Source of the DNA: a virus
Taxonomy: Duplodnaviria; Heunggongvirae; Uroviricota; Caudoviricetes
IMG/VR virus record: IMGVR_UViG_2529293038_000015
Length of the DNA stretch: 12,302 nt
Reading direction: 5' to 3' (one strand)
Below the pieces are notes generated by a model. The model did not search any database and was not told the origin of the DNA. It was given only the letters and a program-made list of their open reading frames with translations. The translations under genes were made by a program, and so were the position numbers. Shown here in pieces: positions 2,298 through 12,302 of this stretch (its first letter is position 1; each line of letters opens with the position of its first letter).

Positions 2298-5200
2298 TTT
2301 GGGGATTGATGCGGCAGAGTTTAAAAATGAAATCCCCCGTATCAAAAACCTTCTGAATGGTGCAGCCAGCGATGCAGAACGGTCTTCTGCCCGTATGCAG
2401 CGTTTTATGGAGCGTCAGACTCAGGCCGCCCGGCAGACAACGCAGGCGGCTTCTTCGGCTGCAACAGCCGCATCCGTCCATGCGCAGACGGTGGAGAAGA
2501 ACGCACAGGCTCATGAACGCATGGCCCGCGAGGTGGAGAAAACCCGCCAGCGCATGGAGGCGCTGAGCCAGAAAATGCGCGAGGAACAGGCGCAGGCCAT
2601 GGCTCTGGCGGAGGCTCAGGATAAAGCGGCTGCTGCGTTTTATCGTCAGATTGACAGTGTGAAACAGGCCAGTGCGGGGCTGCAGGAATTACAGCGTATT
2701 CAGCAGCAGATCCGACAGGCCAGAAACAGTGGCGGGATTGGTCAGCAGGATTATCTGGCGCTGATTTCTGAGGTTACGGCGAAAACCCGTGTTCTTACAC
2801 AGGCTGAGGAAGAGGGTACCCGACAGAAAGTGGCGTTTATCCGTCAGCTTAAAGAGCAGGCAACCCGCCAGAATCTTTCATCTTCTGAGTTGCTTCGTGC
2901 TAAGGCTGCCCAGCTGGGGGTAAGCAGTGCTGCAGAAGTGTATATCCGCAAAATGGAGCAGGCAGGAAAAGCCACGCATTCGCTGGGTCTGAAAAGTGCA
3001 GCGGCCCGCCAGGAGATAGGCGTTCTGATAGGTGAACTGGCCCGCGGCAATTTAGGGGCGCTGAGGGGATCCGGGATAACGCTGGCTAACCGTGCCGGAT
3101 GGATAGACACACTGATGTCACCGAAAGGCATGATGCTGGGCGGGGTTATTGGCGGTATTGCCGCAGCTGTCTATGGTCTGGGTAAAGCCTGGTATGACGG
3201 TCAGAAGGAGGGGGAAGAATTTAACCGCCAGCTGTCGCTGACGGGGCATTATGCCGGAGTCACTGCCGGGCAGCTGTGGACGCTCAGTCGTGCTATTTCC
3301 GGGAATGGTATCACGCAACATGCTGCAGCCGGTGCGCTGGCTCAGGTGGTGGGGAGTGGTGCATTTCGTGGAAACGATATCGGTATGGTGGCGAGAGCTG
3401 CCGCACAGATGGAGCGATCGGTTGGCCAGTCGGTCAGCGATACCATAAGTCAGTTTAAGCGGCTGAAGGATGATCCTGTAAATGCCGCGAAGGCTCTGGA
3501 CAATGAGCTGCATTTTCTTACTGCCACTCAGCTTGAGCAGATACGCGTCCTTGGGGAACAGGGGCGTCCAGTGATGCGGCACGGATAGCCATGTCTGCAC
3601 TGGCAGAGGAAACCGGTCGGCGTACTGCGGATATTGATAATAACCTCAATGCGCTGGGCAGTACGCTGAAGTATCTGTCTGATTTATGGAGTCGTTTCTG
3701 GGATGCGGCCATGAATATTGGTCGTGAAGACTCGCTGGATGAACAGATTTCCGCTTTACAGGAGAAAGTGTCGCGGGCGAAAAGACTCCCCTGGACGGCA
3801 TCATCTTCTCAGGTTGAGTACGATCAGCAGCGTCTTAACGAGCTTCAGGAAAAAAAACGCCAGAAGGATTTGCAGGATGCAAAAGAGCAGGCAGAGCGGA
3901 ATTATCAGGAGCAACAGAAACGCCGTAATGCTGAAAATGCTGCACTGAACCGGATGAATGAAACGGAAGCAGCACGACATCAGCGTGAAATTGCGCGTAT
4001 TAATGCCATGCAGTACGCCGATCAGACTGTCAGGGATGCGGCGATACAACGTGAAAATGAACGTTACGAGAAAGCCCTGGCATCCGGTAAGAAAAAAACA
4101 CGCGAAACCCGTAATGATGAGGCCACCCGGTTATTGCTGCAGTACAGTCAGCAACAGGCACAGGTGGAAGGACAGATTGCTGCTGCCAGACAGTCAGCAG
4201 GCATTGCCACGGAAAGGATGACAGAAGCGCATAAACAGCTTCTGGCTCTGCAGCAGCGCATCAGCGACCTGGACGGGAAAAAACTGACGGCAGATGAAAA
4301 GAGTGTGCTGGCCCGTAAAGATGAACTGATTCAGGCACTGACGCTGCTGGATGTAAAACAGCAGGAGCTTCAGAAACAGACGGCACTCAACGAGCTGAAG
4401 AAAAAAACAATTCAGCTGACCAGTCAACTGGCTGAAGAAGAGCGTGCTCAGCGTCAACAACATAATCTGGATATCGCCACGGTGGGTATGGGTGATCAGC
4501 AGCGGCAGCGATATCAGGTACAACTGAGTCTTCGTCAGAAATACCAGCAACAGCTGGAGCAGTTGAGGCGGGATAGTGAGCAGAAAGGGACATATAACAC
4601 GGATGACTACAGAAAGGCCGAGCAGGCGCTGACGGAGAGCCTGAACCGACAACTGAATGAGAATCGCCGTTACTGGCAACAGCTTGAAATTGCTCAGGGT
4701 AACTGGAAAAACGGAGTCCTGCGTGCACTCCAGAATGTCACTGAGAATGCGGATAACACAGCCTGGACAGTGGAACAGTTGTTCACGTCTGCGTTCAGTA
4801 GCATGAGTGACTGGCTGGCGACATTCTGTACTACAGGCAAACTCAATTTCAAATCTTTTACTTCTTCTGTGCTGTCAGATATGTCCAGAATCATGGCTCA
4901 GATAGCTTTAATGAAAGCGGTAAAAGGCATTGCTTCCGCGCTGCCTTTTGATTTTGTAGCCAATGCTGATGGCGGTGTTTATCAGTCGGCTGATTTGAGT
5001 CGCTACAGTGGCACGGTGGTTAACCGTCCGACGTTTTTTGCTTTTGCAAAAGGCGCGGGTGTGATGGGGGAAGCGGGACCTGAAGCCATTCTGCCATTGC
5101 GTCGTGGTGCTGACGGTAAGCTGGGGGGTGTGGCGGATATTGGGGGTTCAGGTATGGCGATGTTTTCCCCGCAGTACAACATCGAGATCAATAACGATGG

Positions 5201-5324
5201 CACGAACGGGCAGATAGGTCCGGCTGCCCTGAAGGCGGTTTATGACCTCGGGAAAAAAGCGGCAGCGGACTTTATGCAACAGCAGGCCCGTGATGGTGGT
5301 CGGTTAAGTGGAGCATATCGGTAA
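2269..5324 (+). pseudogene. H: Tail tape measure protein H, split into two reading frames by a 1-nt frame disruption at about 3537-3588 (pseudogene or sequencing error)
   Basis: ATG 2269 (MDQIANLVIDLGIDAAEF.., cf. lambda H MAEPVGDLVVDLSLDAARF) with GGAGG at 2256-2260. The first frame stops at 3588; the second frame is open from 3537 and ends ..INNDGTNGQIGPAALKAVYD..ARDGG.. like the lambda H C-terminus. Both parts align collinearly to one tape measure protein; combined length ~1018 aa. ORF-track start 2239 is a TTG. Confidence 0.85.
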
Positions 5325-5653
5325 TGGAGACGTTTCACTGGAAAGTGCGCCCGGATATGAATGTGGTATCAGAGCCGAAAGTGGTGACAGTGAAGCTGGG
5401 CGATGGTTATGAACAGCGTCGTGCGGCGGGACTGAATAACCAGTTGTCGACTTACAGCGTGACGATACGTGTTCGTAAATGTGAACACCCATCTTTAAAA
5501 GCCTTTCTGGAACGGCACGGTGGCGTCCGCGCATTTCAGTGGACGCCACCTTATGACTGGAAACCGATTAGGGTGGTTTGTCGTAAATGGTCGGCAAGCG
5601 TGGGGGCGCTGTGGGTAACCATAACGGCAGATTTTGAACAGGTCGTGGCATAG
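5324..5653 (+). CDS. M: Tail tip assembly protein M
   Basis: ATG overlaps the H stop (TAATG at 5322-5326); 109 aa; METFHWKVRPDM..GDGYEQRR..TYSV..FLERHGG..F.WTPPYDWK..EFEQVV matches lambda gpM (109 aa). Confidence 0.92.
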   Translation: METFHWKVRPDMNVVSEPKVVTVKLGDGYEQRRAAGLNNQLSTYSVTIRVRKCEHPSLKAFLERHGGVRAFQWTPPYDWKPIRVVCRKWSASVGALWVTITADFEQVVA

Positions 5654-11680: not shown

Positions 11681-11693
11681 CAGCAAACTGGAG
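11681..11693. repeat. Target-site duplication (right copy) CAGCAAACTGGAG of the IS4 insertion
   Basis: See left copy; the J reading frame resumes through this copy (..KLEEFSKEW..). Confidence 0.8.
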
Positions 11694-12302
11694 GAGTTTT
11701 CGAAAGAGTGGCAGGACGCTAACGATAAGTGGAATGCCATGTGGGGCGTCAAAATTGAGCAGACCAAAGACGGCAAACATTATGTCGCGGGTATTGGCCT
11801 CAGCATGGAGGACACGGAAGAAGGCAAGCTGAGCCAGTTTCTGGTTGCCGCTAACCGTATCGCGTTTATTGACCCGGCAAACGGGAATGAAACGCCGATG
11901 TTTGTGGCGCAGGGCAATCAGATATTTATGAACGACGTGTTCCTGAAGCGCCTGACGGCCCGACCATTACCAGTGGTGGAAATCCACCGGCATTTTCCCT
12001 GACATCAGACGGAAAGCTGACCGCTAAAAATGCGGATATCAGTGGCAGAGTGAATGCGAACGCCGGGACGCTCAACAATGTCACGGTAAATGAAAACTGT
12101 ACGATTAAGGGCATGCTGGAGGCGACTCAGGTCAGAGGTGACTTCGTTAAAGCTGTATCCAAATCATTTCCGAAACAGGCTGGTACGTGGGGTAACACGG
12201 AAACACCAAACGGGACGGTTACAGTCACCATCAGCGATGATCATAACTTTGACCGTCAAATCATTATTCCGCCCATTATCTTTAACGGAATAGCGTATAG
12301 CT
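11694..12302 (+). pseudogene. J: Distal part of host-specificity gene J downstream of the IS4 insertion; contains a 1-nt frame disruption near 11958-11962 and continues past the window end
   Basis: Translation from 11694 ([89 protein letters not shown]) matches lambda J downstream of ..DNASKLE. After the CCC at 11959-11961 the J-like reading ([28 protein letters not shown]..) continues in the +1 frame, open to base 12302; the original frame stops at 12002. Confidence 0.85.

What the first reader, a model, noticed from the sequence alone, without database searches (positions are those of the whole stretch)
3537..11965. Three independent 1-nt frame disruptions in G/C homopolymers: prophage decay or sequencing artefact
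H (about 3553-3564), the IS4 transposase (11147-11150) and distal J (11959-11961) each show an apparent single-base loss in a short G or C run within about 9 kb. This is what pseudogene accumulation in a defective prophage looks like, but it is equally the signature of homopolymer indel errors from some sequencing chemistries. The two explanations have very different biological meaning and should be separated before calling any of these genes a pseudogene.
Basis: inference. Interest (0 to 1): 0.5.

Follow-up and report, generated by a model that had tools for sequence, protein, structure and literature searches.

The report
Draft-assembly base miscalls, not prophage decay
The broken phage tail genes in this E. 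coli contig are almost certainly single-base sequencing errors in a 2012 draft genome; the only disruption with positive sequence evidence is an IS4 insertion in the tail-tip gene J.

Summary
The window is an entire 12,302-base contig of the E. coli DEC2C draft genome. It holds a lambda-like tail module (Z to J) with an IS4 element inserted in J.

The three frame breaks are present, but they are an undercount. There are eight single-base run-length differences: one in H, three in L, three in IS4 and one in distal J. The three in L add up to +3, so the reading frame stays open and the damage is hidden.

- All five phage-gene differences are private. They are absent from 12 related loci and from every full-length homologous place in about 1,760 to 4,000 complete E. 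coli records.
- The broken products occur on this one contig among about 15 billion proteins.
- Restoring single bases recreates H and L proteins identical to those of an intact relative.
- Three other drafts of the same project each carry their own private single-base indels in the same genes. Together the four drafts have 13 in 36.8 kb, against 2 in 91 kb for nine other assemblies (p = 5e-6).
- Private indels outnumber private substitutions 5 to 1, and they cluster.

Verdict: sequencing artefact, not frameshift decay. The IS4 insertion has a perfect 13-bp target duplication and looks genuine. The IS4 G5-to-G4 change also occurs in 20 complete genomes, so it remains ambiguous.

The parts
2269..5324 (+). 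Tape-measure gene H. It reads as two ORFs (2269-3588 and 3591-5324) because of one missing base.
   Evidence: Homologues are single genes of 1018 aa with TMP_2, TMP_4 and Tape_meas_lam_C domains. Inserting one G gives 1018 aa with no difference from the H of L012.
3565..3566 (+). H frame break: CG here, CGG in every relative (GG to G). It lies next to the G4 run at 3561-3564.
   Evidence: None of 1,761 matching complete-genome records shares this state; the best full-length match is 98.8%, which is one gap.
5663..6364 (+). Minor tail gene L. The ORF is open at 233 aa, but an internal stretch of about 34 residues is read out of frame.
   Evidence: This exact product is on one contig only. Removing three bases gives the 232-aa L of L012, which is seen on more than 1000 contigs.
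6055..6056 (+). Extra G in L (G to GG).
   Evidence: The best full-length match among 3,101 complete-genome records is 98.8%, which is one gap.
6148..6160 (+). Extra T (T5 to T6, 6148-6153) and extra G (G4 to G5, 6156-6160) in L.
   Evidence: The best full-length match among 3,996 records is 97.6%, which is two gaps. The same G5 is seen on a different backbone in a metagenome contig with coverage 0.37.
7718..10255 (+). 5' part of tail-tip gene J. It is cut by IS4, and the stop codon TAA is the first three bases of IS4.
   Evidence: The sequence is collinear with uninterrupted J genes.
10243..10255 (.). Left copy of the 13-bp target-site duplication CAGCAAACTGGAG.
10256..11680 (-). IS4 element of 1425 bp (canonical length 1426). 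It has terminal inverted repeats, and its transposase on the minus strand is split into two ORFs.
   Evidence: It is 99.7% identical to the IS4 of strain PI7, with one mismatch and three indels. Repairing the three indels gives 1426 bp and an open stretch of 454 codons.
11102..11106 (-). IS4: T5 where the canonical element has T4 (A-run on the coding strand).
   Evidence: It is shared only with one CS6L copy that has further indels in T runs.
11123..11124 (-). IS4: GC where the canonical element has GCC (CC to C).
   Evidence: It is absent from all seven IS4 copies compared.
11147..11150 (-). IS4: G4 where the canonical element has G5.
   Evidence: The same G4 occurs in IS4 copies of five complete genomes I aligned, on different backbones and at different loci, all annotated 'frameshifted'.
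11681..11693 (.). Right copy of the target-site duplication CAGCAAACTGGAG.
11681..12302 (+). Distal part of J, running off the contig end.
   Evidence: It is 100% identical to the J of DEC2B (L011) apart from the single-base gap.
11959..11961 (+). Distal J frame break: C3 where relatives have C4.
   Evidence: None of 1,794 matching complete-genome records shares it. With IS4 excised and one C added, J is open to the contig end.

Best explanation
The window is a complete contig of the 2012 E. coli DEC2C draft assembly. The single-base length changes in H (3566), L (6055, 6148-6153, 6156-6160) and distal J (11959-11961) are consensus errors of the sequencing and assembly. Most likely at least two of the three in IS4 (11102-11106 and 11124) are errors too. 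They are over- and under-calls of run length, concentrated where the consensus was locally poor. They are not mutations in the bacterium. The underlying prophage tail module would then be intact, except that an IS4 element has really transposed into J and made a 13-bp target duplication.

Shown by the data: the indels are private, there is a batch effect across drafts of the same project, the indel-to-substitution ratio is skewed, the indels cluster, and single-base repair restores the proteins exactly.

Inferred: the error mechanism. I recall that the DEC collection drafts were made by 454 pyrosequencing, but I could not verify this here.
For: (1) Source. The broken products are GenBank proteins EHU50554, EHU50555, EHU50557 and EHU50560 of E. 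coli DEC2C. Each is seen on exactly one contig of 12,302 bases among about 15 billion proteins, while the intact M and I products are on more than 1000 and 26 contigs.

(2) Privacy. The five phage-gene indels are absent from all 12 related loci. No record among 1,761 (H), 1,794 (J), 3,101 (L, first site) and 3,996 (L, second and third sites) complete-genome matches gives a full-length match without the gap.

(3) Batch effect. Drafts DEC1A, DEC1E and DEC2B, named, each carry their own private single-base indels in the same genes. The four DEC drafts have 13 in 36.8 kb, against 2 in 91.1 kb for nine assemblies from other projects (Fisher p = 5e-6). More DEC-private indels appear in the flanking genes. 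One of the two non-DEC indels is confirmed as real by four contigs, including a complete genome.

(4) Ratio. DEC2C has five private indels but only one true private substitution in 10.9 kb of phage DNA.

(5) No secondary decay. Adding one G gives an H of 1018 aa with no difference from the H of L012. Removing three bases gives an L identical to a protein found on more than 1000 contigs.

(6) Clustering. Three indels lie within 45 nt and three within 101 nt, which has P = 5e-6 under uniform placement.

(7) Error-prone site. The G4-to-G5 change in L recurs on an unrelated backbone in a metagenome contig of coverage 0.37 that carries a further G-run insertion.

(8) Contrast with real frameshifts. 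Frameshifts in this prophage family that look real behave differently: they are shared across assemblies from different projects (J at window-equivalent 9666 in L003, L007, L008 and L009).
Against: - No reads or quality values are available, so the errors are not seen directly.
- The sequencing platform could not be confirmed, because the genome announcement is not held.
- Three of the eight changes involve runs of one or two bases, where flow-chemistry errors are less typical.
- If IS4 is multi-copy in this strain it should have had high coverage, yet it shows the densest errors.
- The IS4 G4 state exists in complete genomes made by other projects, so that one may be real.
- The IS4 insertion is itself private to DEC2C, which shows this lineage has had at least one private real event in the region.
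Confidence: 0.85

Rival explanations
1. Real pseudogenisation. After the IS4 insertion disabled J, the DEC2C lineage accumulated true slippage mutations in H, L, distal J and the IS4 transposase. This would be classic decay of a defective prophage.
For: - Run-length changes are also the commonest spontaneous indels.
- The prophage already carries one real private lesion, IS4 in J with a target duplication, so selection on the tail genes would be relaxed.
- Real frameshifts exist in related prophages.
Against: - Five private indels against one private substitution.
- There are no amino-acid changes downstream of the breaks.
- Three indels lie within 45 nt and three within 101 nt.
- Three sister drafts of the same project each have different private indels in intact-looking prophages, and nine other assemblies have essentially none.
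- At that rate, about 1 per 2.8 kb, a real process acting genome-wide would not be viable.
- Several changes are in runs of one or two bases, where slippage in the cell is rare.
Confidence: 0.06
2. Mixed case. The phage-gene indels are artefacts, but the IS4 G5-to-G4 frameshift at 11147-11150 is a real state of this IS4 copy. It would come from a recurrent slippage hot spot, or from gene conversion with a G4-type IS4.
For: - Twenty of 5,426 complete genomes have IS4 copies that match this stretch at 97.8%.
- The five I aligned all have G4, sit on at least three different backbones and at different loci (a J gene, bcsG, tdk-adhE, fumB-fumC and one more), and are annotated 'frameshifted'.
- The MS8345 copy differs from the window's IS4 only by the other two indels and one base.
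Against: - The G4 lies within 45 nt of two other indels that are private or nearly so, which points to a locally bad consensus.
- Recurrence on unrelated backbones is equally what a miscall hot spot in long-read assemblies would give.
Confidence: 0.25
3. Assembly chimera or collapse. The contig would mix reads from several paralogous lambdoid prophages or IS4 copies, and both the indels and the IS4 junction would be products of that mixing.
For: - Related E. coli genomes carry several places with near-identical tail modules, up to six or seven per genome.
- The contig begins and ends inside repeated phage genes.
Against: - Mixing paralogues cannot create run lengths that no paralogue has.
- The J flanks on both sides of IS4 are 100% identical to one J type, that of DEC2B. 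They are only 85-95% identical to the other known J::IS4 locus, which in addition has IS4 in the opposite orientation.
- The target duplication is perfect.
Confidence: 0.03

Closest known systems
Homopolymer-length consensus errors in flow-based (454 or Ion Torrent) or low-coverage draft assemblies
   Same: The changes are plus or minus one base in run length, and they are enriched in runs of at least four bases. They are private to one assembly and present at a similar rate in sister drafts of the same project. They cluster locally, and single-base repair restores the proteins exactly.
   Different: The platform and the read evidence could not be checked here. Three changes are in runs of one or two bases.
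Frameshift pseudogenes in cryptic or defective lambdoid prophages of E. coli
   Same: The module, tail genes Z to J, is the kind that decays in cryptic prophages. Shared frameshifts that look real do occur in relatives (J at window-equivalent 9666, and a truncated M).
   Different: Here the frameshifts are unshared. Substitutions do not accompany them, and nothing has decayed downstream.
IS4 (IS4 family, insG-type DDE transposase)
   Same: The element has terminal inverted repeats that begin TAATGCC and a 13-bp target duplication. It is 99.7% identical to annotated IS4.
   Different: It is one base shorter than canonical, because three single-base differences within 45 nt split the transposase ORF.

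Membership tests
Real frameshift pseudogene (prophage decay) | The lesion is present in the organism's DNA and is supported by reads or by independent re-sequencing. | not testable with these tools
   Neither reads nor a second assembly of DEC2C is available.
Real frameshift pseudogene (prophage decay) | The lesion is inherited, so related strains or independent assemblies share it. | tested here: not met
   It is absent from 12 related loci, and no full-length match without the gap was found in about 1,760-4,000 complete-genome records. The products occur on one contig only. The exception is the IS4 G4 state, which is seen elsewhere.
Real frameshift pseudogene (prophage decay) | Relaxed selection leaves further signs, such as extra substitutions or secondary stops downstream. 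| tested here: not met
   After repair, H and L show no amino-acid difference from an intact relative. There is one private substitution against five private indels.
Homopolymer sequencing or assembly error | The change is a plus or minus one call of run length, enriched in longer runs. | tested here: met
   All eight are run-length changes. Five of the eight are in runs of at least four bases, which hold 6% of the bases (p = 4e-5).
Homopolymer sequencing or assembly error | Batch effect: other assemblies from the same project show independent errors of the same type, and other projects do not. | tested here: met
   13 private indels in 36.8 kb in the four DEC drafts, against 2 in 91.1 kb in nine other assemblies (Fisher p = 5e-6).
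Homopolymer sequencing or assembly error | The data were produced by an error-prone chemistry or at low coverage at the sites concerned. | not testable with these tools
   The genome announcement, Hazen et al. 2012 (PMC3370608), is not held. That the platform was 454 is my recollection only.
IS4 insertion | Complete element with terminal inverted repeats, flanked by a direct target duplication of 11-13 bp. | tested here: met
   The element spans 10256-11680 and its ends read TAATGCC...GGCATTA. CAGCAAACTGGAG is present on both sides, and J is collinear once the element and one copy of the duplication are removed.
Lambda-like tail module | Gene order Z-U-V-G-T-H-M-L-K-I-J with the matching protein domains. 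| tested here: met
   The window is collinear at 97-99.9% identity with annotated loci that carry these genes and Pfam domains.

The most novel reading that the evidence does not exclude
The indels would be real, so that clonal EPEC strains of the DEC collection each inactivate the tail genes of resident lambdoid prophages rapidly and independently by run-length slippage. A separate and more solid point is that IS4 repeatedly targets one 13-bp site inside lambdoid J genes, in either orientation. That would make it a recurrent route to tail-less prophages.
Probability: 0.06. Interest if true: 0.35.

Novelty: not a real feature. Interest (0 to 1): 0.08.

Why it matters
The main value is as a caution for annotation. 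H, L and distal J of this contig should not be called pseudogenes, and the 233-aa L protein in GenBank is partly a frame-shifted fiction that no ORF scan would flag. Broken genes in the other DEC-collection drafts should be treated with the same suspicion. The only biological content is modest: a private IS4 insertion in J that looks genuine, at a site IS4 has hit independently in other prophages.

Tried and rejected
- Sequencing platform. I tried to confirm the platform of the DEC drafts. The genome announcement is not held under its PMC id or its PubMed id. Text searches for the strain names, the collection and '454' found nothing on methods.
- Same strain in complete genomes. No complete E. 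coli genome has this J::IS4 junction in this orientation, and the best overall match to the window is 97.7%.
- Chimeric contig. I considered that the contig was built from the FDAARGOS_536-type J::IS4 remnant. I rejected this because the J flanks are 100% DEC2B-type and the IS4 orientation differs.
- Compensated frameshift in L. I considered that the three +1 insertions are a naturally compensated frameshift. I rejected this because no homologue carries any intermediate state, and a net change of +3 is not unlikely for three random errors.
- Window 6363. The one-base difference from 55989 and PI7 at this position is natural intergenic variation shared with most relatives, not a private indel.
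- IS4 ORF fragments. They are not in the protein collection with the start codons I chose, so they gave no information.
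Full report
**What the window is.** Exact-sequence look-up places the window's proteins in GenBank as EHU50554, EHU50555, EHU50557, EHU50558 and EHU50560 of Escherichia coli DEC2C. They sit on a contig of exactly 12,302 bases, so the window is a whole contig of that draft. It is collinear at 97-99.9% identity with lambdoid prophage tail modules annotated Z, U, V, G, T, tape measure (H), M, L, K (C40 peptidase), I and J. An IS4 element lies at 10256-11680 on the minus strand, inside J. Its ends read TAATGCC...GGCATTA, and a perfect 13-bp direct repeat, CAGCAAACTGGAG, flanks it at 10243-10255 and 11681-11693.

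**Checking the observation.** The three frame breaks are real features of the sequence.
- In H, a single G at 3566 stands where every relative has GG. It lies one base after the G4 run at 3561-3564, so it is next to a homopolymer and not inside one.
- In IS4, 11147-11150 is G4 where the canonical element has G5.
- In distal J, 11959-11961 is C3 where relatives have C4.

Three is an undercount. The minor tail gene L carries three extra bases: G to GG at 6055-6056, T5 to T6 at 6148-6153 and G4 to G5 at 6156-6160. They sum to +3, so the ORF stays open at 233 aa while about 34 residues are read out of frame. IS4 carries two more changes, T4 to T5 at 11102-11106 and CC to C at 11124. That makes eight run-length changes in 12.3 kb. 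Five of them are in runs of at least four bases, which hold 6% of the bases (p = 4e-5). They form two clusters, three within 45 nt and three within 101 nt, which uniform placement gives with P = 5e-6. A further one-base difference from two comparators at 6363 is ordinary intergenic variation that most relatives share.

**Are the changes shared?** I collected 12 related loci. Two came from a DNA search of complete E. coli genomes. Ten came from looking up contigs that encode the identical I protein. In a multiple alignment, the five phage-gene indels are private to the window.

Short queries centred on each site were then searched against 5,426 complete E. coli genomes. They matched 1,761 records for H, 1,794 for distal J, and 3,101 and 3,996 for the two L queries. 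In every case the best full-length match has exactly the one or two expected gaps, so no genome shares the window's state. The broken products (H fragments of 439 and 577 aa, the 233-aa L and the 846-aa J fragment) each occur on this one contig in a collection of about 15 billion proteins. The intact M and I products occur on more than 1000 and 26 contigs.

**The decisive comparison: a batch effect.** Three of the loci found through the I protein are drafts from the same project: DEC1A (L008), DEC1E (L009) and DEC2B (L011). They were identified by the names of their own fragment proteins. Each carries its own private single-base indels in the same genes.
- DEC1A: window-equivalent positions 6717, 6751 and 8964.
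- DEC1E: 2916, 2950 and 3850.
- DEC2B: 3518 and 4620.

These indels split H, K or J in different places in each draft. The four DEC drafts have 13 private single-base indels in 36.8 kb. Nine assemblies from other projects have 2 in 91.1 kb (Fisher p = 5e-6). A wider comparison that includes the flanking genes finds more DEC-private indels and essentially none in the controls.

One of the two control indels is an A4-to-A5 change that truncates M to 77 aa in ADUL01. Its product is seen on four contigs, including a complete genome, so it is real. A frameshift in J at window-equivalent 9666 is likewise shared by an NCTC assembly, by ADUL01 and by two DEC drafts. In this prophage family, frameshifts that look real are shared across projects. 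The ones in the window are not.

**Other signatures.**
- The closest relative, L012, differs from the window over 8.56 kb by seven true substitutions and by exactly the window's four indels.
- Those substitutions fall in patches that other relatives share. The window has only one true private substitution against five private indels.
- Adding one G to H gives a 1018-aa protein with no difference from the H of L012.
- Deleting the three extra bases from L gives a 232-aa protein identical to one found on more than 1000 contigs.
- With IS4 and one copy of the duplication removed and one C added, J is open to the contig end.
- Repairing the three IS4 sites gives 1426 bp and an open stretch of 454 codons.

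So there is no decay downstream of any break. The G4-to-G5 change in L also appears on a different sequence backbone, in a 523-base metagenome contig of k-mer coverage 0.37. That contig carries another G-run insertion in K, which marks this run as prone to miscalls.

**IS4.** The insertion itself looks genuine. The element is complete and the target duplication is perfect. The J flanks are 100% identical to the uninterrupted J of DEC2B on both sides.

The G4 state at 11147-11150 is not unique to the window. Twenty complete genomes have IS4 copies that match this stretch with two differences. The five I aligned all have G4, on different backbones and at different loci, and are annotated as frameshifted. 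They are FDAARGOS_536, 675SK2, 2012EL-2448, B-2207 and MS8345. This run is therefore a hot spot, either for real slippage or for miscalls, and I cannot tell which applies here. The C at 11124 is private. The T5 at 11102-11106 is shared only with a CS6L copy that has further indels in T runs. All three IS4 changes lie within 45 nt, which favours a locally poor consensus.

**Conclusion.** The best explanation is consensus error in the draft assembly for the H, L and distal-J sites, and probably for most of the IS4 sites (confidence about 0.85). I recall that the DEC collection drafts of 2012 were produced by 454 pyrosequencing, which would fit. I could not verify this, because the genome announcement is not held and text searches gave nothing on methods.

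Real prophage decay by frameshifts is not supported (about 0.06). A mixed case, in which the IS4 G4 is real, remains open (about 0.25 for that one site). A chimeric assembly is unlikely (about 0.03). On the sequence evidence, the prophage is disrupted by the IS4 insertion in J and not by the frameshifts.

**Novelty and interest.** This is not a real biological feature, and interest is low. Its value is a warning: these genes should not be annotated as pseudogenes, and the deposited L protein is partly a frame-shifted artefact. The small point worth keeping is that IS4 has inserted at the same 13-bp J target in other prophages as well.

Noticed in passing
window 10243-10255 and 11681-11693; L013 11028-11040 and 12466-12478; L020 1821-1833 and 3260-3272: IS4 has inserted at the same J position, with the same 13-bp target duplication CAGCAAACTGGAG, in at least three contexts. 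They are this contig; FDAARGOS_536, 21AR0173 and AREA_492 (opposite orientation, J only about 95% identical); and RM10740 (intact transposase, another J backbone). This suggests an IS4 hot spot in lambdoid J genes that is independent of orientation.
   Followed up: partly
window 11147-11150; L013, L015, L016, L017, L018: An IS4 transposase frameshift, G5 to G4, recurs in 20 of 5,426 complete E. coli genomes, with up to 7 matching places in one genome. It sits on different IS4 backbones and at different loci (a J gene, bcsG, tdk-adhE, fumB-fumC). It is either a real slippage hot spot or a recurrent miscall.
   Followed up: partly
window-equivalent 9666 (L003 about 12657, L007 about 12657, L008 about 6689, L009 about 12388): A one-base deletion in J (GGGCGTGAG in the window, GGGGG-GAG in those loci) splits J into 655 aa plus a second ORF. 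An NCTC assembly, ADUL01, DEC1A and DEC1E share it. It is a cross-project frameshift and presumably real; the window does not have it.
   Followed up: partly
L019 (ENA ERZ504502, 523-base contig, coverage 0.37): A low-coverage metagenome contig shows the same G4-to-G5 change in L as the window, on a different backbone. It also has an extra G in a G run of K.
   Followed up: yes
L007 about 8490 (window-equivalent 5497): An A4-to-A5 insertion truncates M to 77 aa in ADUL01. The same 77-aa product is on four contigs, including a 5.18-Mb complete genome, so this one is a real frameshift. It served as a useful positive control.
   Followed up: yes
window 6369-7112 (K): The intact K protein is also unique to this contig. 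The cause is two substitutions (6446 and 6810) shared with other relatives in a patchy way, which fits mosaic recombination and not error. Uniqueness of an exact protein is therefore not evidence of error on its own.
   Followed up: partly
window 1 and 12302 (contig ends): The contig starts inside Z and ends inside the distal part of J. Both are repeated among lambdoid prophages, so the contig boundaries are assembly breaks at repeats and not prophage ends.
   Followed up: no
L011 9206-10921 (DEC2B, downstream of J): The DEC2B draft has at least five further private single-base indels in its Lom and tail-fibre region. This extends the batch effect beyond the tail-module genes.
   Followed up: partly
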